Source of the DNA: Candidatus Dadabacteria bacterium
GTDB taxonomy: Bacteria > Desulfobacterota_D > UBA1144 > Nemesobacterales > Mycalebacteriaceae
DNA length: 64,000 nucleotides
Assembly (NCBI GenBank): GCA_026708565.1
Contig: JAPOUR010000032.1
Location: 9,081-73,080 of the forward strand
Reading direction: 5' to 3'
The notes beneath the pieces were generated by a model that did no database searches, was not told where the DNA came from, and worked only from the letters and a program-made list of their open reading frames with translations. Made by a program: the position numbers and the translations under genes. The first letter of the stretch is position 1. Every line of letters begins with the position of its first letter. Of this stretch, positions 9,557-52,488 are shown one piece after another.

Positions 9557-9946
9557 TTACTTTCCGCCCGAAACGCGCTCCAGAACAACATCCACAATTT
9601 TTTCGTGTATGCCGAGCGGGTCGGTAACGGTGTGCCTGAGGCCGGGGAATTTCCGCGCCGCCGCCCGCGCCATTGAGGGAATGTCAAAGCCCGAATGTTT
9701 TCCGGGAACGAGAAAGTAGGGGTGAACCACCACCTCTTCCGCCCCCATTTCCGCGCATTTTGCAAACGCATCCTCCATTGTCGGGGGGGCTAACTCCATA
9801 TGGCAGTGCTCAACCATGTCAAAGTCCGTATTTCTCGCCTCTATCCTTTGCGCGACAAGGGCGAGCAGCCGGTTTGCCTCATCAACCGTGCTGCCGTGGT
9901 CAACAAGTATCAGGGCTTTTCTAATTTGCCTGTTTTGCCCCGACAT
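9557..9946 (-). CDS. cbiX: Small-form sirohydrochlorin chelatase CbiX(S).
   Basis: 129 aa. The sequence ALILVDHGSTVDEANR...HPYFLVPGKH is typical of CbiX-S. An AGGAA ribosome-binding site is present. Confidence 0.7.
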   Translation of the reverse strand: MSGQNRQIRKALILVDHGSTVDEANRLLALVAQRIEARNTDFDMVEHCHMELAPPTMEDAFAKCAEMGAEEVVVHPYFLVPGKHSGFDIPSMARAAARKFPGLRHTVTDPLGIHEKIVDVVLERVSGGK

Positions 9947-11057: not shown

Positions 11058-12351
11058 GTTCAATCCTCCCCGAATCGCGCCGGGAAGTATGCTGTCCGCC
11101 AAGCATAAAATCAACACGGCCTGTGAGCGCCTCAAGGTTGTCGCGCATTTTTGCGGACACAAAAACCGCGCCGCGGTATATCAAAGAAAGGTCTTTTATT
11201 CTGCCGGGCGGGGCCGTGTCGGTCTTGTTGAAAGCAAGCAGCCGGGGAATGTCGCCAAACCCCATAAGGCCGATAACATTTTCAACCGCCGTTATTTTGT
11301 CTTCCACAACCGGGTCGCCCGCGTCCGCCACATGAACAAGCAGGCCCGCGCCGCCAATCTCCTCAAGGGTCGCCCTGAAAGCCATTCTCAGGTCGTCCGG
11401 CAGGTCTTTGATAAAACCCACCGTGTCTGTGAGGAGAACAGGGGAGCGCGCCGGGCGGTAAAGGCGGCGGGTCTTTGTGGCGAGGGTGGTGAACATTTTG
11501 TCCGCCGCATCGGCGGGGGCTTTGGTCAGGGCGGCAAACAGGGTGGATTTTCCCGCATTTGTATAGCCCACAAGGGAAACCGCCCGCGAGTTGCCGTCTT
11601 TTATGCGGCGGGTCTTTGTGCGCTCCCTTCTCGCCGATATGCCCTCCATTTGCCGCTCAAGGTCTTTTATCCGCTTCCGCAGGCCCCTTCTCTCTTTTTC
11701 CAAGCGTTTCTCTCCGGGGCCCCTTGTTCCTATACCGGCTCCGGGGTTTGACATCAGCGCCCCGCTTCCCGCAAGGCGGGGAAGGGCGTATTTCAATTCG
11801 GCGAGTTTGACCTGAAGCCTTCCCTCTTTTGAGGACGCCCGGGATGAGAAAATTTCAAGAATCAGTTGCGTCCTGTCAATAATTTTCATGTCAGTGCGGC
11901 TTTGTATCTCGGAAATTTCCGCCGGTTTCAATTCGGTGTCAAAAATTACCGCCCCCGCCCCCTCATGCCTTGCAAGCAGAAGAAGGTCGGAGAGGTTCGC
12001 CTCTCCCAAAACGGTGTTGCCCGTCCTTTTGGAGGGACGGAGCATATGGATGCGCCGCCCGGCAACCTGTTTTCCCGCAGACACCGCAAGCCGCTCAAGT
12101 TCCTCAAGCGAGGCCGCCGCCCCGGCCTGCGTCCCGCGCGAGGCTCCCGCAAGAAAAACACAATCCCGGCCTCGCGGGGCGGCGGGGCGCGCCGCCTCCG
12201 GAACGGCAAGGGCGGTCTGCGAATCAACCCTCACGGCTCTGTAATCCGGAAAGCGGACGGTTTCACATCTGTCCGGGCCGGGAGAGGGGCGGGCAAACTC
12301 AAAACCCGCATGGCCCCGGGGGCCGCCCGGCATTGTTATGACGCCCACCAT
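10987..12351 (-). CDS. hflX: GTPase HflX.
   Basis: HflX N-domain (QVKLAELKYALPRL) and the G-domain motifs GYTNAGKST and DTVGFI. The start is uncertain; the ORF is open back to 12609. The 3' end overlaps the pepT start by 71 bp. Confidence 0.7.
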   Translation of the reverse strand: MVGVITMPGGPRGHAGFEFARPSPGPDRCETVRFPDYRAVRVDSQTALAVPEAARPAAPRGRDCVFLAGASRGTQAGAAASLEELERLAVSAGKQVAGRRIHMLRPSKRTGNTVLGEANLSDLLLLARHEGAGAVIFDTELKPAEISEIQSRTDMKIIDRTQLILEIFSSRASSKEGRLQVKLAELKYALPRLAGSGALMSNPGAGIGTRGPGEKRLEKERRGLRKRIKDLERQMEGISARRERTKTRRIKDGNSRAVSLVGYTNAGKSTLFAALTKAPADAADKMFTTLATKTRRLYRPARSPVLLTDTVGFIKDLPDDLRMAFRATLEEIGGAGLLVHVADAGDPVVEDKITAVENVIGLMGFGDIPRLLAFNKTDTAPPGRIKDLSLIYRGAVFVSAKMRDNLEALTGRVDFMLGGQHTSRRDSGRIEHDFIHENAGAPDGYHPDRQRVTL

Positions 12352-27538: not shown

Positions 27539-27543
27539 CCTTG

Positions 27544-28749
27544 ATGCAAAGATTGACGGACAATCAGTTGCTTAAGTTGTTGAATGACCTTGAGTCCGAC
27601 TGTGCCGAGCGCAAGGAAACATTCAAAGGAGAGGCGTCCAAAAAGGCAAGACAGGCGGTCTGTGCGTTTGCCAATGACCTACCCGGCAACAACCGGCCGG
27701 GTGTGTTGTTTATCGGCGCAAAAGACAACGGCGAACCGAGCGGATTGGATATTACAGATCAACTTCTTTTATCTTTGGCGGACATGAAAACAGACGGCAA
27801 TATCCTGCCTTTGCCCGTGTTGTCGGTGGAAAAACGCACATTGAGGGGGGCGGATATGGCTGTTGTCACAGTCCTGCCGTCCGACATGCCTCCGGTTAGG
27901 TATGCCGGGCGTATATGGACTCGCACCGGTCCGCGCCAGTCCATTGCCAACGAGCAGGAAGAGCGCATCCTTAATGAAAGGCGCAGATACAAAAACCTGC
28001 CGTTTGACCTCCGCCCCGTCCCCAGCGCGACCCTTGCGGATTTGTCAAAGACGATATTTGAGAATGAATATCTGCCCGCCGCATTCGCAAGCGATGTTTT
28101 GGAAGAAAACAACCGAAGTTATGAGGAACGTTTGGCTTCATGCAAAATGCTCTCATTGCAAGACAATGCGCCGACCGTGCTTGGGTTGATTGCAATCGGC
28201 AGAAACCCGCAGGATTTTCTGCCCGGAAATTACATACAGTTCCTGCGTATTGATGGCACTGAACTGGCCGACCCGGTTATAGACAACGCAAAAATCGTTG
28301 GTGATATAGTCAAAATGTTGCGACTGACGGAAGAAAAACTCCAAGCCCATAACCGTGAAGCGGTGGATATTACATCGGGACCAACACATAAATTAGACAG
28401 CGCCTATCCGCATGTGGCGTTGCAACAAATCCTTTACAATGCCGTTCTCCATCGCGCTTATGAAAGTAACAACGCGCCAGTTCGCGTTTACTGGTATAAC
28501 GACCGAATTGAAATCATCAATCCCGGCGGGCCTTATGGAGAGGTTACGGCGGAAAACTTTGGTCAACCGGGCATAACCGGCTACCGCAACCCGAACATAG
28601 CGGATGTGTTAAAAACCTTCGGTTTCATTCAGGCTTTCGGGCGCGGCATAGCCACCGCAAAACGGACAATGGAAGAAAACGGCAACCCGCCGCCGGAGTT
28701 TGAAGTCAACCAGAGTTTTGTAAAATGTATTTTGCGGGGCAAGGTGTGA
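27544..28749 (+). CDS. ATP-binding protein with an AlbA_2 (Schlafen-like, divergent AAA) N-domain and an HATPase_c_4 C-domain. Proteins of this architecture are often annotated as RecG-like regulators.
   Basis: Domain architecture recognised from sequence. GC is about 50%, against about 60% in neighbouring genes. It starts 5 bp after the proA stop. Confidence 0.6.
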   Translation: MQRLTDNQLLKLLNDLESDCAERKETFKGEASKKARQAVCAFANDLPGNNRPGVLFIGAKDNGEPSGLDITDQLLLSLADMKTDGNILPLPVLSVEKRTLRGADMAVVTVLPSDMPPVRYAGRIWTRTGPRQSIANEQEERILNERRRYKNLPFDLRPVPSATLADLSKTIFENEYLPAAFASDVLEENNRSYEERLASCKMLSLQDNAPTVLGLIAIGRNPQDFLPGNYIQFLRIDGTELADPVIDNAKIVGDIVKMLRLTEEKLQAHNREAVDITSGPTHKLDSAYPHVALQQILYNAVLHRAYESNNAPVRVYWYNDRIEIINPGGPYGEVTAENFGQPGITGYRNPNIADVLKTFGFIQAFGRGIATAKRTMEENGNPPPEFEVNQSFVKCILRGKV

Positions 28750-28759
28750 ACGCCGATTC

Positions 28760-30160
28760 TTGTTAACAATGGCAAAGCGAAACTTTGAAAACCGGACACT
28801 GTATCACGGAGACAACCTCAAGTTCTTGATGGAAATGAACTCTGGAACCATTGACTTGGTAGCAACCGACCCGCCGTTCAACAAGAGTAAGGATTTCCAT
28901 GCCACACCAGACAGTTTGGCCAAGGGTGCTAAATTTCAAGACCGATGGTCGTGGAAAAAAGATGTGCAACAGGAATGGGTTGACCAGATAACTGATGACC
29001 ATCCTGCACTCAAGGAATCTATTGAGGCAGCTAGAGCAGCGCACTCCGATGGTATGGGAGCATTTTGTTGCTTCTTAGCGGTGAGGCTTTTGGAAATGAA
29101 GCGCATCCTTAAACAGACTGGCTCCATATACATTCACTGCGACCCTACAGCAAGCCATTACATAAAGACCATTATGGACGCAATTTTCGGCAGGAAAAAT
29201 TTCATCAACGAAATAGTTTGGAACTATGAGAAGTGGACTAATGCGGGGAATATTTTCCAACGAAACCATGATCTAATCTTGTTTTACGGAATGCCAGAGT
29301 ACAAATTCAACAAGCAGTACGGAGAACGCACACAGAGGCAGAAATCACTTATGAAGGCCGGGTACAATTTGGGTTCCAGTAACGGGGTTCGGCTGGTCAG
29401 GATATACGACAAAAATAACCCGAATGTTGTGAAAAAACTCTCGGAATGGAAAGCGGAGGGGCGGGCAGTCTACTATGTGGATGAACCGGAAGGCAAGGCA
29501 CTATCAGATGTTTGGGACATTCCATCCCTGAATGGGCAGGCAAAGGAGCGATACGGCTACCCGACTCAAAAGCCTCTCGCCTTATACGAAAGAATAATAG
29601 AGACATCCAGTGACGAGGGAGATGTCGTTCTTGACCCATTCTGCGGTTGTGCTACGACATTGGTTGCCGCAGAAAGGCTGAAAAGAAAGTGGGTCGGCAT
29701 GGACATATGGGATGAAGCGAAAGATGCTGTCATCAAAAGGTTGTCTAAGGAAGGGAAACTCAATTCTGATCAACTGAGCAGTCCAGAAACTCTCTTCTAC
29801 TGGGATAAGATTATATATGAAACTACGCCGCCAGAACGTGCGGATAATGACATCAAGGAAGACCGTCCCGTATATCAGGTGCCAGAAAGATTTCAAGAGC
29901 CGGGGCAGAAAATGGGGCGACAGGAAATGGTAGAATACCTGCTGAAACACAACGGCCCCGTATGCCAAGGATGCGACAGAGAATTCAGTGATCCTCGCTA
30001 CTTGGAACTAGACCACAATACACCTCGTTCAGATGGGGGGCTCAACCACATAACCAACAGGGTATTACTGTGCGGTCCTTGTAACAGACTGAAAAGCAAT
30101 AGGTTCACCCTGAGTGGATTGCGTAGAGAGAACAAGAAACTCGGTTACATGGCTGATTAA
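28760..30160 (+). CDS. Beta-class DNA N6-adenine/N4-cytosine methyltransferase fused to a C-terminal HNH endonuclease domain.
   Basis: Motif IV LVATDPPF (aa ~35-42) precedes motif I VVLDPFCGCATT (aa ~290). The HNH domain is CQGCDREF...LELDHNTPRSDGG...NRVLLCGPCNRLKSN (aa ~400-450). Confidence 0.75.
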   Translation: MLTMAKRNFENRTLYHGDNLKFLMEMNSGTIDLVATDPPFNKSKDFHATPDSLAKGAKFQDRWSWKKDVQQEWVDQITDDHPALKESIEAARAAHSDGMGAFCCFLAVRLLEMKRILKQTGSIYIHCDPTASHYIKTIMDAIFGRKNFINEIVWNYEKWTNAGNIFQRNHDLILFYGMPEYKFNKQYGERTQRQKSLMKAGYNLGSSNGVRLVRIYDKNNPNVVKKLSEWKAEGRAVYYVDEPEGKALSDVWDIPSLNGQAKERYGYPTQKPLALYERIIETSSDEGDVVLDPFCGCATTLVAAERLKRKWVGMDIWDEAKDAVIKRLSKEGKLNSDQLSSPETLFYWDKIIYETTPPERADNDIKEDRPVYQVPERFQEPGQKMGRQEMVEYLLKHNGPVCQGCDREFSDPRYLELDHNTPRSDGGLNHITNRVLLCGPCNRLKSNRFTLSGLRRENKKLGYMAD

Positions 30161-30184: not shown

Positions 30185-31021
30185 TCACTTAGTAGGTAAA
30201 TCTTTATTTGGCGAAAAAAGTTCATGCTCAAAGAAGAAATCCTCTGGCAATTGTATGTTGCATTTAATCCCCATTTTTTCATCGAACAAAACAAATGTCA
30301 TTGTCATATACTTTGATGATAAGCGCATGTAATCGGCCTCCATGAAAGGATTATACCTCACTATTGGCACTAAATGCCCCTTGTGTAAAGGATTGGTGCA
30401 CGGTCTAACATTATGCATTCCAACATGTTGCCACATATTATGTACCGCTCCACTAAGTGGAACATAGGCATATTTATAGGTAGACTCTCTACCTATTTCT
30501 TTTGCCATTTCTCTTGCTGACATACCCGACCATGACCCTACATTAACTTCTGTAGCCCATTCAGCCAACTGACTATTTAACCAAGACTTCTTTCCTTGTA
30601 TCGTTCTTTCTAGCATATCTAAGTCGGAAGGGTCGGTGCATTTACTGATGGATTCTTCCAAGAACTCTATGTATAATTTTTCTTGACCTATACCATACTC
30701 CACATACTGCTTACTACGACTTTTTGGATCTTCCAGTATCCATGCCATAGTGATATACGCTTCTACCATGCATCGAAGAAACAACGGAGCAATGTGTGAA
30801 TTCCAAGTGGACGGAGCGAAAGCCATCTCCGTTGTCAAAATAACCTGTCTAGACAATAAAGCTCCGATACTCTCATGTATATGCTTATCATAAATCTCCG
30901 GTTTGACTTGTTGCCACCGAGCATCAAAACCATCTCTAACAATTTCTACATATACATCGATAAAATCATTCAGTAATTCGTTCTTGTCAGTCTCTACTTT
31001 ATCACTCATTTTGCTCACCAA
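30185..31021 (-). CDS. Hypothetical protein B, 278 aa, in an AT-rich region. It is convergent with the methyltransferase gene, 25 bp away.
   Basis: Long ORF in a locally low-GC segment with no recognisable catalytic motifs. It is overlapped by 20 bp by upstream gene A. Confidence 0.55.
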   Translation of the reverse strand: MVSKMSDKVETDKNELLNDFIDVYVEIVRDGFDARWQQVKPEIYDKHIHESIGALLSRQVILTTEMAFAPSTWNSHIAPLFLRCMVEAYITMAWILEDPKSRSKQYVEYGIGQEKLYIEFLEESISKCTDPSDLDMLERTIQGKKSWLNSQLAEWATEVNVGSWSGMSAREMAKEIGRESTYKYAYVPLSGAVHNMWQHVGMHNVRPCTNPLHKGHLVPIVRYNPFMEADYMRLSSKYMTMTFVLFDEKMGIKCNIQLPEDFFFEHELFSPNKDLPTK

Positions 31022-31772
31022 ACCTACATTGACTAATCTCTACACCGCAGTTCCAAAAACATCTAGCCCAAGTATTGTCGAGATTAAGCACTCCAAATTC
31101 GCCCAATCCATTTATTCGTAAGAGCCCAGCAGCATGTTCCGCTTCCTCGCTACCGGGCTTATTGATAACGGCATCGAAATCTGGCGAATCCATATCAGAT
31201 GGAAAGTGAGTGGTTCCTGTCACAAGGCGGAATAAGAGCATAGCACCGTGTAAAACAATACCGGGTGTCTCGTATTTATTAACCGTTTTTCCTACACATT
31301 CTTTGATACGAAAAACAAGTTCTTCCCTTGAAAATACATTGCTTGGTGGCCCTATGAAGATTAGCGGGCAGTCATCATAGAGTAGCACAAGTGGCGCAAT
31401 AGCATCTCGAATTACATCCAGAATTTCACTTTTCTTGAACAATTCAACTAATCTGATTTTCTGTTTCGTACTCAGGCATCTAAAACTAGATATAAGAGAA
31501 AAGTTGCTCTGCTGGTCATCTTTTTTTATTTCATTTACCGCTATGAAGATTGTTTCCAGTATGCGAGTCCCTTCAATATAGCCAACTTTCTCATTTATAA
31601 GTCCAATCCACACTAATTCTGGGAGCATATCATCTACATAACTTACAGATTTCATAGGAATCTGTTTTATTGGAGGTATAAACCGCTTCCCTATTCTCTT
31701 ATGCCCTTCAAGAACTTTTCGTCTTTGTTGCTTCCCTTTGTTCTTCTGTTCATTGTGACTTTTGACTACCAT
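31002..31772 (-). CDS. Hypothetical protein A, 256 aa, with a basic N-terminus (KNKGKQQRRK). It is the first gene of a two-gene AT-rich cassette.
   Basis: Long ORF with an AT-rich 5' intergenic region upstream (31773-31980) and a 20-bp overlap with gene B. Confidence 0.55.
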   Translation of the reverse strand: MVVKSHNEQKNKGKQQRRKVLEGHKRIGKRFIPPIKQIPMKSVSYVDDMLPELVWIGLINEKVGYIEGTRILETIFIAVNEIKKDDQQSNFSLISSFRCLSTKQKIRLVELFKKSEILDVIRDAIAPLVLLYDDCPLIFIGPPSNVFSREELVFRIKECVGKTVNKYETPGIVLHGAMLLFRLVTGTTHFPSDMDSPDFDAVINKPGSEEAEHAAGLLRINGLGEFGVLNLDNTWARCFWNCGVEISQCRFGEQNE

Positions 31773-31980
31773 CTCAGTACCTTCGCAATGTCTATAATAC
31801 TACATTTCAATACCATCTTATACCACTATCCTCAAACTCCACTTCTGACAAAAGTCTACCTATAGATATCTTGTTCACTCTGAGACGTGAAACACAAGCC
31901 ACACCATTACCACTATAGAGTTGGCTGGTGGTGAAATAGATTCCTGTGCGCGTAAACAAGCAGGTTTGTGTCAACGGCAA

Positions 31981-32178
31981 TCAAACCCGGCTCCAGTCCT
32001 CATAAATCATTTCACGAGTGTCCTCCCATGAAAGATTTTCAAACGGGTTCGGGTCGCCGGGGTTTCCCACAGTTAAATTGCGAGACATCTTGTAATGTTT
32101 TTTGGACTGTTTATCCGAAATGGTCTTGTTAATACCGTCTTCAACAACAGACCGCAAGGTACGCTCCACTTTCTTCAT
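31981..32178 (-). CDS. Small hypothetical protein of 65 aa (MKKVERTLRSVVEDGINK...), starting immediately after the pdaD stop.
   Basis: The ATG sits right after the pdaD stop codon and is preceded by GGTGGGG. Confidence 0.3.
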   Translation of the reverse strand: MKKVERTLRSVVEDGINKTISDKQSKKHYKMSRNLTVGNPGDPNPFENLSWEDTREMIYEDWSRV

Positions 32179-48241: not shown

Positions 48242-49546
48242 ATGATTAAACATCTCAAGATGAGCAATGTGGGACCAGCTCCGGCTATGGAGTTGGAGTT
48301 TGGCGACAGACTGAACCTGCTCACGGGGGATAATGGATTAGGCAAGAGTTTTCTGCTGGATATAGCATGGTGGGCGATGACCCGCATATGGCCAGCGGAG
48401 TTAAACACGAATCTGACATCGGGCAGGGTGGCGTTGCCTACTGAGAAGAAACAGAAATCTGAAATCAGTTATTCCTTCTCCGCATTCTCTACGAACACAA
48501 AACCACATACCAGCACTTATGAACCGGAAATCCAAAGTTGGTCTGCTCCAAGTTGGCCTGCTCCAAAAGGGAGACCCCCAAACCCCGGATTGGTGTTTTA
48601 TGCCTTGGCCGACGGTAGTTTTGCAGTTTGGGACCCCGCCAGAAATTACTGGACAGCACAAACCGGGAACGGAGAACGTCCGGTTGCTTATGTGTTCAGC
48701 CCCAAAGAGGTATGGGATGGATTGCAACGCAAAGACGGTTCTTGGCTTTGCAACGGACTGATTCGCGATTGGGCTGGCTGGCAAAAAGAAAAAGGACAAG
48801 CTTTCCAGTCCTTAAAGGATGTGCTGGAGGTTTTGTCACCGTCCACTGAGGAAAAGATTACTCCCGGCGAGTTGACACGCATCAGTTTGGATGATGTGCG
48901 AGACATGCCGACATTGAAAATGCCTTACGGTCAGGATGTCGCCGTAGTCCATGCGTCTGCGGGAATGCGCCGGATTATTTCTCTGGCTTACTTTCTGGTC
49001 TGGTGCTGGGAAGAACATGTCAAAGCCAAGAAATTGCAGGGAGATGAAGATGAACCGGAAAAAGGTGTGGTCTTTCTGGTTGATGAAGTTGAGGCACACC
49101 TCCATCCGAAATGGCAACGCATGGTAATCCCGTCCCTTCTAAAGGTTATGGAAACTCTAACAGAATCCGTCCCTGTGCAACTGATAGTAGCAACTCATTC
49201 ACCCTTGGTTATGGCCTCGGTGGAAACGCTGTTTGACAACGAGAAGGATGCTTGGTTTGACCTTGACCTTAAAGACAATGAAGTCGTTCTAACCCCTCGG
49301 CCCTTTGTAAGGCAAGGTAATGTTGCTCATTGGCTGACAAGCGCAGCCTTTGATTTGGAGTCCGCTTACGGCTCTGATGAAATCAAAAAAGTACTGGAAG
49401 AAGCCTCCTTTGCTTTGAGCAATGAAAATTTCAGTAAAGAAGAAGCAAAAAAGTTAGATAAGCGCCTGAGAAAAGTCTTGTCAAGTACCGACCCCTTATG
49501 GGCACGGTGGCGTTTTGAGGGCGAAAAAAGAGGGTGGCTACGATGA
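48242..49546 (+). CDS. ptuA: Septu PtuA-like ABC-type ATPase of the AAA_15/AAA_21 family.
   Basis: Walker A LLTGDNGLGKSF and Walker B/H-loop VVFLVDEVEAHLHP...VATHSP, with a long insert between them. It is coupled by a 13-bp overlap to an HNH gene. GC is about 49%. Confidence 0.65.
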   Translation: MIKHLKMSNVGPAPAMELEFGDRLNLLTGDNGLGKSFLLDIAWWAMTRIWPAELNTNLTSGRVALPTEKKQKSEISYSFSAFSTNTKPHTSTYEPEIQSWSAPSWPAPKGRPPNPGLVFYALADGSFAVWDPARNYWTAQTGNGERPVAYVFSPKEVWDGLQRKDGSWLCNGLIRDWAGWQKEKGQAFQSLKDVLEVLSPSTEEKITPGELTRISLDDVRDMPTLKMPYGQDVAVVHASAGMRRIISLAYFLVWCWEEHVKAKKLQGDEDEPEKGVVFLVDEVEAHLHPKWQRMVIPSLLKVMETLTESVPVQLIVATHSPLVMASVETLFDNEKDAWFDLDLKDNEVVLTPRPFVRQGNVAHWLTSAAFDLESAYGSDEIKKVLEEASFALSNENFSKEEAKKLDKRLRKVLSSTDPLWARWRFEGEKRGWLR

Positions 49547-50148
49547 TTCATGTCAAGTTGCGACCGGAGCCTGATACATTCAATAGCAGGGTTAGGCAAA
49601 AAGGTCATGCTTGGATGAACAAACACCAGACTCTACCGCCCAGCAATAAATTCCCTCGCTACTGGAAAGATTGTCTGGATGATTTGCGTTCAAGTTATAA
49701 AGACCATTGCGCTTACCTCGCCGTACAGATTGAAGAAGTTGAAGGAGAATACCCTTCTGTGGATCACTTCTTAGCAAAATCGAGACGACCCGACCTTGCA
49801 TACGAATGGAGCAACTATCGTCTTTCATGCTCAGAAATAAATAGTCTCAAAGGCAACTCTGATGATGTATTAGACCCGTTTGAAATAAAGAACAACTGTT
49901 TTCATCTTGATCTTGAATTTTTAATCGGGCATATCTACTCCAATAAGGCACTACCGCCTGACCAAAGAGAGGGGATTCAAGCGACTATAGATAAGCTCAG
50001 ATTGAACAATGATAAATATCGGGAGATGAGGGAGCAACATTACCAAGATTGCCGTGAGGGACACTACGACAGCGATTACTTGAAACGCATATCTCCCTTT
50101 GTTTGGTCGGAGGCTAAACGGCAGGGGTTGCTGAAAGATAACGGCTAA
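49534..50148 (+). CDS. ptuB: Septu PtuB-like HNH endonuclease of the TIGR02646-like family, with a partly degenerate zinc finger.
   Basis: Sequence HCAYL...VDHFLAKSRRPDLAYEWSNYRLSCSEINSLKGN retains the HNH His/Asn residues, but the second Cys of each CxxC pair is replaced. Confidence 0.6.
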   Translation: MATMIHVKLRPEPDTFNSRVRQKGHAWMNKHQTLPPSNKFPRYWKDCLDDLRSSYKDHCAYLAVQIEEVEGEYPSVDHFLAKSRRPDLAYEWSNYRLSCSEINSLKGNSDDVLDPFEIKNNCFHLDLEFLIGHIYSNKALPPDQREGIQATIDKLRLNNDKYREMREQHYQDCREGHYDSDYLKRISPFVWSEAKRQGLLKDNG

Positions 50149-50183
50149 CCAACCACCCGTATTGGAGTTGAGAGGAAACAAAC

Positions 50184-51035
50184 ATGAAAACAGAAACCAA
50201 AGGCGGCAGGACCGCCCTGATAAGGGCTGCAAAAGAAGGCGATACCAATAAGATACGGAAATTGCTGAAAGCAGGGGCAAACATAGAAGCAAAGGATAAT
50301 GAGGGTAGGACGGCTCTTATAATCGCAACAGAATATGAGCGCTCTCAAGCAATGGGGTTACTGTTGAAAGCAGGAGCGGATACAGAGGCAAGAGCAAAGA
50401 AGCGCAGACGGACATCTCTGATGATTGCGGCGGCAAGAAGCGGAACAGGTAGGGTGGCTGAACTACTGAAAGCAGGGGCAAACACAGAAGCAAAAGATAA
50501 TGAGGGCAGGACGGCTCTTATAATCGCAACAGAATATGAGCGCTCTCAAGCAATGGGGTTACTGTTGAAAGCAGGAGCGGATACAGAGGCAAGAGCAAAG
50601 AAGCGCAGACGGACATCTCTGATGATTGCGGCGGCAAGAAGCGGAACAGGTAGGGTGGCTGAACTACTGAAAGCAGGGGCAAATACAGAAGCAAAGGATA
50701 ATGAGGGTAAGACGGCTCTTATAATCGCAGCAGAAAACGGGCACTCTCAAACAACGGCGGAGCTACTGGAAGCGGGAGCAGACATAGAAGCAAAAGATAA
50801 ATATGGCGGAACAGCCCTTATAGTAGCAGTAGGAAACGAACATCATAAAGTAACGGCGGAACTACTGAAAGCAGGAGCGGCAAAAGGTGAAAATGGCAGA
50901 AAACTTCACAAAGCAACAGCCCTTCGGGAAGCAAGAGACCTCTGGGAGAAAACAAGAAAAACCAATATAAGTAGCAAGACCACCCTAATAAAGGCTACCA
51001 AAAAGGCGATACCAACAAGATACGAGAATTGCTGA
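50184..51035 (+). CDS. Ankyrin-repeat protein, N-terminal part of a probably frameshifted gene.
   Basis: About 8 ANK repeats (GRTALIIA...LLKAGA). The reading frame continues in the +2 frame after an A5GG tract at 51000-51006. Confidence 0.6.
   Translation: MKTETKGGRTALIRAAKEGDTNKIRKLLKAGANIEAKDNEGRTALIIATEYERSQAMGLLLKAGADTEARAKKRRRTSLMIAAARSGTGRVAELLKAGANTEAKDNEGRTALIIATEYERSQAMGLLLKAGADTEARAKKRRRTSLMIAAARSGTGRVAELLKAGANTEAKDNEGKTALIIAAENGHSQTTAELLEAGADIEAKDKYGGTALIVAVGNEHHKVTAELLKAGAAKGENGRKLHKATALREARDLWEKTRKTNISSKTTLIKATKKAIPTRYENC
50271..50740. repeat. Near-perfect 201-bp tandem repeat, about 2.3 copies, encoding 67-aa double-ANK units.
   Basis: Units start at 50271, 50472 and 50673. 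Copies 1 and 2 differ at only a few positions. Confidence 0.9.
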
Positions 51036-51940
51036 AAACAGGGGCAAACATAGAAGCAAAAGATAACCGAGGCAGGACGGCTCTTATAATCGCAACAGAA
51101 TACGAGCACTCTCAAGCAATGGGGTTACTGTTGAAAGCGGGAGCAGATACAGAAGCAAGGAGAGAGATGCGTAGGTGGACACCTCTGATGATTGCGGCAA
51201 GATTTGAAACAAGTAATCTGGCGGAACTGCTGAAAGCAGGGGCAGACACAGAAGCAAAGGATAATGAGGGCAAGACAGCCCTTATAATCGCAGCAGAATA
51301 CGGGTGCTCTCAAGCAACGGCGGAGTTACTGAAAGCGAAGGCAGACATAGAAGCAAAGGATACATATGGCAGAACAGCCCTTAGAGTAGCAACAGGAAAA
51401 AGACGCCATAAAGTAACGGCGCAACTGCTGAAGGCAGGGGCGAGAGTAGAGGAAGCGAAGGCAGGGGCAAAAGTAGGGGAAGCAAGAGAAACCAATATAA
51501 AAGTTCAGAGCCCGGATGCCCATAAAGTTTCTTTCTCCACAGAAGCGGAGTTAGAAAACTTTATTTGTTCGCATTGGTACCACACTATCTTTGGCAATGC
51601 TTTTGACATTTACAAAGACACGGAAGGGCGAAGCGGCAAGCAATACCCCACGGACCTGAGAGAGCGGATTGATATTCTTGCCATAAGCAATGACAAGGAA
51701 ACTTTTCTTGTCATTGAACTGAAAGTGGGCAAAGCCCCCGATACCGTTGTCGCACAATGCCAGCGTTACATGGGCTTTGTCAAAGACAAAGTGGCAAAGA
51801 ACGGCCAGAAAGTGCGGGGAGCCATAGTAGCCACAGAAAAAGACAAGAAGATGGAACGGGCTTTGTCAGAAGCATCTAATGTTGACTTCTACACCTACAA
51901 GGTTGACTATAAGGCCGTTCAAATGAGCAGAGTTGAGTGA
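51029..51940 (+). CDS. Ankyrin repeats followed by a C-terminal PD-(D/E)xK nuclease-like domain (NucS/DUF91-like or Shedu-like). This is probably the 3' part of the same gene as 50184..51035.
   Basis: ANK repeats, then RIDILAISNDKETFLVIELKVGKAPDTVVAQCQRYMGFV, which carries the D...E-x-K core and the QxxRYMG motif. Confidence 0.55.
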   Translation: MLKTGANIEAKDNRGRTALIIATEYEHSQAMGLLLKAGADTEARREMRRWTPLMIAARFETSNLAELLKAGADTEAKDNEGKTALIIAAEYGCSQATAELLKAKADIEAKDTYGRTALRVATGKRRHKVTAQLLKAGARVEEAKAGAKVGEARETNIKVQSPDAHKVSFSTEAELENFICSHWYHTIFGNAFDIYKDTEGRSGKQYPTDLRERIDILAISNDKETFLVIELKVGKAPDTVVAQCQRYMGFVKDKVAKNGQKVRGAIVATEKDKKMERALSEASNVDFYTYKVDYKAVQMSRVE

Positions 51941-52488
51941 GTTCCGCCGATTTGGAAAAACTCCCGCCACTGTTTATAATGCGCGCAAATACCGGATTTG
52001 CGGTGCCCGAAATGGTTTTCAGTCAGAACGAAATAGGGTCGGAACGACTGCTTTTTGAAGTGTCAAAAAGCGCCGGGTGGCTGACCAATATAGAAGAAAT
52101 GGCGGACGGCAGCGGGGAAACAACCCTCGGCTCCCGCATTCTTTTCAGCGCGGGCGTTGAGAAGATCGGCGCACAACTGCATGTCTGCGGCGAAGTGTCG
52201 TTTGAGGTTGTGTCGCGCTGCTCAAGATGCCTCGGCTCTGCAAAAGAACGGGTGCGCAGCCCGATAGAGTCCTTTCTGCCCATGCCCGGCGGCGGAAACG
52301 TCATAGACATCTCGGACGATATGAGGGAACATGTGGCAATGGCAATGCCGCAGAGAGTGGTGTGCCGGAGCGAGTGCAAAGGACTTTGCGCCGGATGCGG
52401 GGCAAACTTGAATGAAGGTTTCTGCGATTGCGCAAGCGACCGGACTGACCCGCGCCTCGGCGCGCTGAAAGACGCCCGGACGGCCTGA
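51937..52488 (+). CDS. yceD: YceD/DUF177 family protein, needed for large ribosomal subunit and 23S rRNA accumulation.
   Basis: C-terminal Cys cluster CSRCLG...CRSECKGLCAGCGANLNEGFCDC. Its position immediately upstream of rpmF is conserved. The start is uncertain. Confidence 0.7.
   Translation: MSSADLEKLPPLFIMRANTGFAVPEMVFSQNEIGSERLLFEVSKSAGWLTNIEEMADGSGETTLGSRILFSAGVEKIGAQLHVCGEVSFEVVSRCSRCLGSAKERVRSPIESFLPMPGGGNVIDISDDMREHVAMAMPQRVVCRSECKGLCAGCGANLNEGFCDCASDRTDPRLGALKDARTA

What the first reader, a model, noticed from the sequence alone, without database searches (positions are those of the whole stretch)
30185..31772. Overlapping two-gene cassette of unknown function in the most AT-rich part of the island; candidate novel defence or toxin module
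Genes A (256 aa, basic N-terminus) and B (278 aa) overlap by 20 bp and are transcribed toward the methyltransferase-HNH gene, terminating 25 bp from its stop. An AT-rich promoter region lies at 31773-31980. Neither protein shows a motif I can assign. The composition, the tight coupling and the placement next to a restriction-modification-like gene and a Schlafen-like ATPase are hallmarks of uncharacterised anti-phage or abortive-infection operons.
Basis: inference. Interest (0 to 1): 0.75.

Follow-up and report, generated by a model that had tools for sequence, protein, structure and literature searches.

The report
Split DitA-like gene pair without DitB
The two overlapping genes are real and together equal one protein, DitA, of the validated but mechanistically unknown Aditi anti-phage system; here it is split into two genes and lacks the usual partner DitB, so it is a likely but untested defence variant, not a wholly new system.

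Summary
Gene A (31002-31772, minus strand, 256 aa) and gene B (30185-31009, 274 aa from the conserved ATG) lie in a 40 % GC segment of a 55 % GC Candidatus Dadabacteria genome.

They are not motif-less. B carries Pfam DUF5677. A and B match, in order, the N- and C-terminal halves of DitA of the Aditi defence system:
- PADLOC DitA profile: A on positions 5-235, B on 307-449.
- hhalign against canonical DitA: 97.9 % and 95.9 % probability.
- Natural single-chain fusions of 514-583 aa bridge the two halves.

A followed by B is an obligate, translationally coupled pair in 31 non-redundant loci from at least 15 phyla. Their sequence distances co-vary (r = 0.92).

Canonical Aditi also needs DitB. 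DitB is absent from the window and from all 44 related non-canonical loci, although my DitB model finds it in the canonical controls. No other neighbour is conserved, and the methyltransferase-HNH gene recurs in only one other locus.

A has no solved structural relative. B is a helical bundle with an invariant His/Cys cluster.

Best reading: a two-subunit, DitB-independent DitA-like module, probably anti-phage. Homology is firm. Function and mechanism are inferred.

The parts
31002..31772 (-). Gene A, 256 aa. It is the homologue of the N-terminal half of DitA. It has a basic N-terminal arm with the conserved motif L-x-G-H-K-R-x-G-K-R-F-I-P-P, then LPELxWIGL, and a C-terminal W-x2-FW...S-x-C-E motif.
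   Evidence: - ORF listing.
- PADLOC DitA E 7e-9, profile positions 5-235 of 486.
- hhalign against verified S. kuerlensis DitA: 97.5 % probability, E 8e-12.
- hhalign against a 34-sequence canonical DitA alignment: 97.9 %, E 5e-13, A 19-256 aligned to DitA 5-241.
- 80 close homologues.
30185..31009 (-). Gene B, 274 aa from ATG 31009 (278 aa from TTG 31021). It is a DUF5677 protein and the homologue of the C-terminal half of DitA. Its helical bundle ends in a conserved H190-x2-W193 ... C204-x-N-P-x-H209-x2-H212-x-V-P215 cluster.
   Evidence: - Pfam PF18928 E 1.5e-20, 74.4 bits.
- PADLOC DitA E 5e-12, profile positions 307-449.
- hhalign against canonical DitA: 95.9 %, E 6e-9, B 67-250 aligned to DitA 296-475.
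- More than 205 homologues; all 120 listed carry PF18928.
- Model pLDDT 88.7.
- Residues conserved across split, fused and canonical forms.
31002..31009 (-). The A-stop / B-start overlap ATGAGTGA, a translational-coupling junction. GGTGAG lies 5 nt upstream of the ATG.
   Evidence: The sequence itself. In all 31 non-redundant split loci an ATG (GTG in L032) for B lies within -20 to +7 nt of A's stop codon, and -8 is the commonest spacing.
31773..31942 (-). 170-nt leader upstream of A that belongs to the low-GC segment. Any promoter of the cassette must lie here or further upstream, but none was identified.
   Evidence: No sigma-70-like match on the minus strand. GC is 0.413 over 31773-31980. 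The right limit is set by the point where similarity to an intact vapC ends.
31913..31984 (-). Truncated vapC (PIN toxin) start. It is not part of the module but marks the cassette's right border. TTG at 31984 begins LIAVDTNLLVYAHR, which matches an intact VapC for 14 codons (to about 31943). The frame then diverges and stops at 31913.
   Evidence: Frame translation. tblastn hits lie next to each other on a Gemmatirosa plasmid. The intact 144-aa partner there is a Pfam PIN domain (E 9e-10), preceded by a VapB-like antitoxin.

Best explanation
A and B are the two halves of a DitA-type protein, encoded as separate, translationally coupled genes. They most likely assemble 1:1 into a heterodimer that reconstitutes the single-chain DitA architecture of an N-domain plus DUF5677. 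Unlike canonical Aditi (DitA + DitB), this lineage has no DitB and no other conserved partner, so the DitA-like core must act alone or through host factors.

I propose that it is a stand-alone anti-phage module acquired by horizontal transfer. A, with its basic N-terminal arm, would be the recognition part. B, with its invariant Arg/Lys/Ser/His residues and His/Cys cluster, would be the metal-binding effector or structural centre. A's invariant C-terminal Cys249 may complete that site at the A-B interface.

Shown: the homology, the split/fusion relationship, obligate co-occurrence, absence of DitB, and horizontal-transfer signatures.
Inferred: physical complex formation, metal binding, anti-phage activity, and any biochemical activity.
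For: Homology to DitA:
- A and B hit PADLOC DitA in order, on profile positions 5-235 and 307-449.
- Profile-profile matches to canonical DitA are 97.9 % (E 5e-13) and 95.9 % (E 6e-9). The match of A to the experimentally verified S. kuerlensis DitA is 97.5 %.
- All 120 listed canonical DitA relatives carry DUF5677.

Split/fusion relationship:
- Nine of the top 150 representatives of the A family are 514-583 aa. These, plus the fused ORF in L016, match the DitA profile nearly end to end.
- Rhizobium indicum carries a 523-aa fusion.
- In L005 and L011, A and B are in the same frame separated by one stop codon.

Obligate pair:
- In 32 of 32 informative genome loci, B-homologous sequence follows A directly.
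- There are 31 non-redundant intact split loci with coupled junctions.
- The A and B distance matrices correlate at r = 0.92 (Mantel test, 0 of 2000 permutations).
- Residues conserved in all three forms lie in both halves.

No DitB and no other partner:
- My DitB HMM finds the canonical controls at 1e-80 to 1e-104 but nothing in the window or in 44 other loci.
- No other flanking family is conserved.

Mobility and defence context:
- The pair's GC is below that of its flanks in 28 of 34 loci.
- In the window the segment truncates a vapC gene.
- Neighbours elsewhere include E2/ThiF, AAA_15/AriA/GajA-like, SIR2, MADS, RM and HicAB genes and an integron integrase.
- Aditi protects B. subtilis from phages (10.1101/2022.05.11.491447).
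Against: - No experiment exists on any DitB-less or split form.
- Similarity to validated DitA is remote: about 22-26 % identity, and only 33 and 43 bits on the PADLOC profile.
- Of two canonical Aditi operons tested, only one protected.
- One DUF5677 ORF tested in Enterococcus faecalis was not among the protective genes (PMC12632615).
- Several copies sit alone among housekeeping genes rather than in defence islands.
Confidence: 0.5

Rival explanations
1. The pair is a selfish addiction (toxin-antitoxin-like) cassette with no anti-phage role. One product would be toxic and the other would neutralise it, so the pair persists by post-segregational killing.
For: It is a compact two-gene operon with overlapping genes, patchy distribution and low GC, and it occurs as a lone insertion among housekeeping genes. 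It lies next to or inside TA loci: a vapBC remnant in the window and HicAB in L048. It may be an integron cassette in L007.
Against: Neither protein matches any toxin or antitoxin family in Pfam, NCBIfam or PADLOC. Both are large (256 and 274 aa) and equally conserved. Stable natural fusions, and the single-chain canonical DitA, show that the halves are two domains of one protein rather than antagonists. Broken copies have lesions in both genes, not in one only.
Confidence: 0.15
2. The pair is a non-defence accessory function, for example a stress, regulatory or nucleic-acid-processing factor. It would share ancestry with DitA but not its role.
For: Homology to DitA is remote. DitB, which may give Aditi its defence function, is missing. 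Many neighbours are ordinary metabolic genes. No relatives were found on viral contigs, and only three on 72,556 plasmids.
Against: The distribution is sporadic across at least 15 phyla, with 45-70 % identity between distant phyla, and there are composition signs of transfer. Roughly a tenth of immediate neighbours carry defence-type domains. No conserved metabolic or regulatory partner exists.
Confidence: 0.2
3. The pair is a canonical-type Aditi whose DitB equivalent is encoded elsewhere in the genome, or is too divergent to detect. The cassette alone would then be incomplete.
For: Only 64 kb of this genome and at most 10 kb of flank per related locus were examined. DitB evolves fast and has no Pfam domain.
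Against: In canonical loci DitB overlaps the DitA stop codon, and my HMM detects it at 1e-80 to 1e-104 across Bacillota and a Humimicrobiaceae MAG. No DitB-sized co-oriented ORF follows the pair or the fusions. No conserved family of any kind is present in the flanks of 35 loci.
Confidence: 0.1
4. The pair is a decayed pseudogene: a once-fused DitA-like gene broken by a frameshift in this genome.
For: A and B are in different frames and overlap, as a frameshift would produce. Truly fragmented copies exist elsewhere (L029, L031, L038-L040).
Against: The split architecture has its own ATG and ribosome-binding site and is conserved in 31 non-redundant loci. Mean column identity is 48 % for A and 58 % for B, and no internal stops occur. 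Split forms far outnumber fusions among close relatives, about 140 to 9 in the top 150.
Confidence: 0.02

Closest known systems
Aditi defence system (DitA + DitB; Millman et al. 2022, verified operon from Saccharibacillus kuerlensis)
   Same: A plus B are collinear with DitA and homologous to it: N-domain plus DUF5677. They share these motifs:
- L-x-[GD]-H-...-K-[RF]-[IF]-x-P
- LPE-x2-W-[IL]-GL
- FW...S-x-C-E
- Y-G-[IL]-G-Q-x-K-L
- H-x2-W...C-x-[NS]-P-x-H-x2-H-x-[VI]-P
. Both are compact operons with overlapping genes, and neither has a known mechanism.
   Different: - Here DitA is encoded as two genes of 256 and 274 aa, not one of about 480-490 aa.
- DitB is absent from the window and from every related locus.
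- Sequence identity to canonical DitA is only about 22-26 %, so PADLOC or DefenseFinder rules that require both genes should not call it Aditi (inference from the missing DitB).
- Canonical Aditi relatives recovered here are mainly from Bacillota. This family spans Dadabacteria, Chloroflexota, Acidobacteriota, Pseudomonadota, Myxococcota, Planctomycetota and others.
Pfam DUF5677 (PF18928) proteins
   Same: B is a bona fide member: 74.4 bits against a cut-off of 27.1, and all 50 aligned relatives match.
   Different: The Pfam model covers only B residues 50-197 of the 274-aa protein and stops before the conserved Cys/His hairpin. Pfam assigns no function. The obligate A partner is not part of the Pfam definition.
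Fused or split single-protein defence modules such as fused toxin-antitoxin defence proteins (for example CapRel); analogy only, from my own knowledge
   Same: Sensor and effector parts can be encoded either as one chain or as two coupled genes, and the unit works without further partners.
   Different: There is no sequence or fold similarity. No toxin domain was identified here.

Membership tests
Aditi (DitA + DitB) | A DitA homologue (N-domain followed by DUF5677) is present | tested here: met
   PADLOC DitA is hit by A (profile 5-235) and by B (307-449). hhalign gives 97.9 % and 95.9 % against canonical DitA. Natural fusions match the profile end to end.
Aditi (DitA + DitB) | DitA is a single polypeptide of about 480-490 aa | tested here: not met
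   The window encodes two ORFs of 256 and 274 aa in different frames with an 8-nt overlap. Canonical members are 479-501 aa.
Aditi (DitA + DitB) | A DitB gene (about 360-370 aa) lies immediately downstream of, and overlaps, DitA | tested here: not met
   The DitB HMM and phmmer find nothing in the window or in 44 non-canonical loci. The positive controls L043 to L045 score 1e-80 to 1e-104. hhalign of B against DitB gives 0.2 % probability.
Aditi (DitA + DitB) | Confers resistance to phage when expressed | not testable with these tools
   This needs cloning and phage challenge. Only the S. kuerlensis DitAB operon has been verified.
Pfam DUF5677 (PF18928) | Score above the Pfam gathering threshold | tested here: met
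   B scores 74.4 bits against a cut-off of 27.1, E 1.5e-20.
Type II toxin-antitoxin module | One product belongs to a known toxin family or the other to a known antitoxin or DNA-binding family | tested here: not met
   Pfam, NCBIfam, PADLOC and PHROGs give no such match for A or B.
Type II toxin-antitoxin module | Toxicity of one product is neutralised by the other | not testable with these tools
   This needs expression experiments.
Restriction-modification-linked operon with the adjacent methyltransferase-HNH gene | Conserved co-occurrence of the pair with the methyltransferase-HNH gene | tested here: not met
   A homologous methyltransferase-HNH neighbour is seen only in the window and L017. 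N6_N4_Mtase and HNH each occur in 2 of 135 flanking ORFs. In the window the genes are convergent.
Integron gene cassette | Located in an attC-bounded cassette next to an intI integrase | tested here: inconclusive
   In L007 an IntI4-like integrase (E 4e-71) lies 341 bp upstream and divergent. Hairpin inverted repeats bracket the pair and a co-oriented ORF array follows. The attC R/L boxes were not verified. No such arrangement is seen at the window copy.

The most novel reading that the evidence does not exclude
The DitA-like A/B pair and its fused forms may be an unrecognised, widespread stand-alone defence family: about 300 representatives at 50 % identity score E <= 1e-30, from at least 15 phyla. 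It would work without DitB. That would show that DitA is the self-sufficient sensor-effector core of Aditi. It would be built from an N-domain with no solved structural relative and a DUF5677 bundle with an inter-subunit His/Cys metal site.
Probability: 0.38. Interest if true: 0.6.

Novelty: new variant of a known kind. Interest (0 to 1): 0.45.

Why it matters
Aditi is one of the validated anti-phage systems for which nothing is known. It has no recognised domains beyond a DUF, no solved structure and no known trigger.

A large natural family that keeps only the DitA part, mostly split exactly at the domain boundary, offers three things:
- A minimal system to test whether DitA alone defends.
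- Nature's own definition of the two folding units, useful for expression and structural work.
- A short list of residues conserved across all forms for mutagenesis: A E52, R219 and C249; B R79, K111, R166, S186, H190, C204, H209 and H212.

It also shows that rules requiring DitA and DitB together would miss this family, so Aditi-like systems outside Bacillota are probably undercounted.

Tried and rejected
- **Structure-based function assignment.**
  - No PDB sequence matches the DitA profile.
  - The AlphaFold-database libraries were not installed.
- **Weak recurrent Pfam signals** across all 49 A and 50 B relatives. Nothing appeared beyond DUF5677. DUF5996 in 2 of 50 and DUF6806 in 4 of 49 are too weak to use.
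- **HEPN, HD, HKD, His-Me and DinB-like motifs** were looked for by eye in B and not found (inference only).
- **A conserved third gene.** All-against-all clustering of ORFs within 6 kb of the pair in 35 loci found only tyrosine recombinases at variable positions (7 loci) and families limited to 2 loci.
- **DitB as a hidden relative of B.** Rejected: hhalign probability 0.2 %.
- **Phage or plasmid carriage.** No viral-contig relatives of A or B were found, though those scans are limited by their search patterns. Only 3 plasmid hits were found for B.
- **Promoter and terminator signals** at the window copy. No minus-strand sigma-70 match upstream of A, and no terminator between the convergent stops.
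- **Literature** on an Aditi mechanism, trigger or escape mutants. None found.
- **attC verification in L007.** Hairpins are present, but there is no repeated attC family and the boxes could not be confirmed.

Full report
**1. The observation**

The window holds two minus-strand ORFs exactly where stated. A is 31002-31772 (256 aa, ATG). B is 30185-31021 (278 aa from the first TTG).
- GC is 0.398 for A and 0.388 for B, against 0.547 for the window.
- A's first 40 residues contain 12 K/R and 2 D/E.
- B's stop lies 24 nt from the stop of a convergent 466-aa gene that combines an N6_N4 DNA methylase with an HNH nuclease domain. Beyond that gene lies a 402-aa SLFN/AlbA_2 + HATPase_c_4 protein.

Three details need correcting.
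- B most likely begins at the ATG at 31009 (GGTGAG, 5 nt, ATG), which gives an 8-nt ATGAGTGA overlap.
- The 208-nt 'promoter region' is not more AT-rich than the genes (GC 0.413) and has no sigma-70-like match on the coding strand.
- The proteins are not motif-less (see section 2).

**2. What the proteins are**

B is a clear member of Pfam DUF5677 (74.4 bits, cut-off 27.1). Against PADLOC-DB, A and B both hit one model, DitA, in order. A residues 20-250 cover profile positions 5-235 (E 7e-9). B residues 81-226 cover positions 307-449 of 486 (E 5e-12).

DitA is one of the two proteins of Aditi, a system shown to protect B. subtilis from phages. Its authors found no recognisable domain in it (10.1101/2022.05.11.491447). 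From their Table S2 I took the verified S. kuerlensis DitA (483 aa, first 399 available) and DitB (372 aa).
- A 49-sequence profile of A aligns to verified DitA residues 5-235 with 97.5 % probability.
- Against a 34-sequence alignment of canonical DitA proteins, profile A gives 97.9 % (E 5e-13; A 19-256 to DitA 5-241). Profile B gives 95.9 % (E 6e-9; B 67-250 to DitA 296-475).
- All 120 listed canonical DitA relatives carry DUF5677.

So A plus B together equal one DitA.

**3. Split and fused forms, and co-occurrence**

A has 80 and B more than 205 close homologues. The window copy of A is 100 % identical to a Candidatus Dadabacteria MAG protein.

A scan of one genome per species returned 38 loci from at least 15 phyla. 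HMM searches of their ORFs gave this breakdown:
- 4 loci end right after A.
- 2 hold only short A-like remnants.
- In all 32 others, B-homologous sequence follows A directly. Of these, 26 are intact split pairs, 1 is a single 539-aa fused ORF (L016, Pirellulaceae), and 5 are fragmented copies.

Seven further contexts from metagenome assemblies all show A followed by B.

Across the 31 non-redundant split loci:
- An ATG (GTG in L032) for B lies within -20 to +7 nt of A's stop, and -8 is commonest, as in the window.
- In L005 and L011 the two genes are in one frame separated by a single stop codon.
- Pairwise distances of A and of B correlate at r = 0.92 (Mantel test, 0 of 2000 permutations).

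An exhaustive profile search with A found 1,217 representatives at 50 % identity with E <= 1e-3. This count includes canonical DitA N-domains. 300 of them score E <= 1e-30. Nine of the best 150 are 514-583 aa long. These nine, and the L016 fusion, match the PADLOC DitA profile nearly end to end (E 1e-10 to 9e-36). A Rhizobium indicum megaplasmid carries a 523-aa fusion.

These fusions show that A and B are two domains of one functional unit. They also rule out a private frameshift in this genome.

**4. What is missing, and the surroundings**

In canonical loci, DitA is followed by an overlapping 362-364-aa gene. My DitB HMM recognises that gene at 1e-80 to 1e-104. The same HMM, and phmmer, find nothing in the window or in the 44 non-canonical loci. 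DitB is unrelated to B. No co-oriented DitB-sized ORF follows the fusions.

Clustering ORFs within 6 kb of the pair in 35 loci found no conserved partner. The only family seen in more than two loci is a tyrosine recombinase at varying positions.

Of 135 immediate neighbours, no Pfam family occurs more than twice and no PADLOC family more than four times. By my rough count about a tenth are defence-type: methyltransferase-HNH, ThiF/E2, AAA_15/AriA/GajA-like, SIR2, MADS, NsnB, a type III methyltransferase, PDDEXK and HD-CE. Many others are housekeeping genes. In L046, L047 and L049 the pair is a lone insertion among metabolic genes.

Signs of mobility:
- The pair's GC is below its flanks in 28 of 34 loci, by 6.4 points on average.
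- In the window, the right end of the low-GC segment cuts a vapBC locus. The vapB-like ORF (31981-32178) is intact. The vapC/PIN frame matches an intact homologue for only 14 codons.

No relatives were found on viral contigs, and few on plasmids.

**5. Structure and conserved residues**

Both AlphaFold models are confident (pLDDT 87.5 and 88.7) and all-alpha.
- B resembles only generic helical bundles.
- No PDB sequence matches the DitA profile.

Residues conserved in split, fused and canonical forms alike are A L21, F31, P34, P51, E52, W55, G64, R219, F239 and W240, and B R79, I86, G106, G108, K111, L112, R166, A169, S186, H190, W193, H209 and P215. The profile alignment also pairs B C204 and H212 with DitA C428 and H436, and A C249 with DitA C231.

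In B, the His/Cys residues sit on a short helix and a predicted beta-hairpin. A's C-terminal tail has low confidence when modelled alone.

**6. How it most likely works**

Shown: the pair is a split DitA homologue, inherited as a unit, translationally coupled, horizontally mobile and independent of DitB.

Inferred: A and B form a 1:1 complex equivalent to single-chain DitA. The His/Cys cluster binds a metal, possibly completed by A's C249 at the interface. The complex is a self-contained anti-phage module. I put this at about 0.5.

The rivals are a non-defence accessory role (0.2), a selfish addiction cassette (0.15), dependence on an unlinked DitB-like gene (0.1) and a pseudogene (0.02).

Cautions:
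- Identity to validated DitA is only about 22-26 %.
- Only one of two canonical Aditi operons protected.
- A DUF5677 ORF tested in Enterococcus did not protect (PMC12632615).
- Aditi's own mechanism is still listed as unknown in a 2026 review.

**7. Comparison and novelty**

The pair works like, and descends from, Aditi's DitA. It fails two defining features of the Aditi system, a single-chain DitA and an adjacent DitB, so I do not file it as Aditi.

It is best described as a new variant of a known kind: a DitB-less, mostly split DitA-like family. I found no description of it in the searchable literature.

**8. Limits**

- No multimer model could be run.
- The defence-neighbourhood estimate is rough and has no background control.
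- The viral and genome scans rely on short peptide patterns and may miss divergent members.

Noticed in passing
window 31913-32178 (minus strand): A vapBC-type toxin-antitoxin locus is cut at the right border of the low-GC segment. The 65-aa vapB-like ORF (31981-32178) is intact and starts 3 nt after the arginine decarboxylase gene. The overlapping vapC/PIN frame (TTG at 31984) matches an intact Gemmatirosa VapC for 14 codons, then diverges and stops.
   Followed up: yes
window 27541-30160 (plus strand): Two further defence-type genes sit between proA and the cassette. One is a 402-aa SLFN/AlbA_2 + HATPase_c_4 protein. The other is a 466-aa fusion of an N6_N4 DNA methyltransferase with a C-terminal HNH nuclease. 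Their GC (0.51 and 0.47) differs from that of the A/B pair (0.39), which suggests separate acquisitions. A related but larger methyltransferase-HNH gene lies upstream of the pair in L017.
   Followed up: partly
L007 8293-11712 (MAG Desulfobacterium, OY771474.1): An IntI4-like integron integrase (E 4e-71) lies 341 bp upstream of the A/B pair and is transcribed divergently. Hairpin inverted repeats (9796-9868 and 11627-11712) bracket the pair, and a co-oriented ORF array follows. The pair may be an integron cassette there. The attC boxes were not verified.
   Followed up: partly
L005 2110-3765; L011 9965-11416: In these two loci A and B are in the same reading frame and separated by a single stop codon. 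Split and fused forms are therefore one point mutation apart.
   Followed up: partly
L051 5224-6795 (Rhizobium indicum JKLM 12A2 plasmid pPR12A201, NZ_CP054022.1): A cultured, pea-nodule Rhizobium carries a 523-aa fused A-B protein on a conjugative megaplasmid, with no DitB. Alteromonas marina AD001, Alteromonas sp. KUL42, LOR and IB21, and Thioalkalivibrio sp. XN8 carry split pairs. These are convenient sources for experiments.
   Followed up: partly
L029, L031, L038, L039, L040: These copies of the pair are fragmented or frameshifted, with both genes affected. They are either decaying copies or assembly errors in MAGs. L041 and L042 hold only short A-like remnants without B.
   Followed up: no
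window 49001-52000: A second low-GC stretch (GC 0.45-0.48) has an unusually strong AT skew, up to 0.43. It may be another acquired segment. It was not examined.
   Followed up: no
L001 5878-7933; L003 6669-7922; L048 8525-10878: Immediate neighbours of the pair elsewhere include a Prok-E2/ThiF (E1-E2) pair with WYL and HTH-peptidase M78 genes, an AAA_15/AAA_21 ATPase, and HicA/HicB modules on both sides of the pair.
   Followed up: partly
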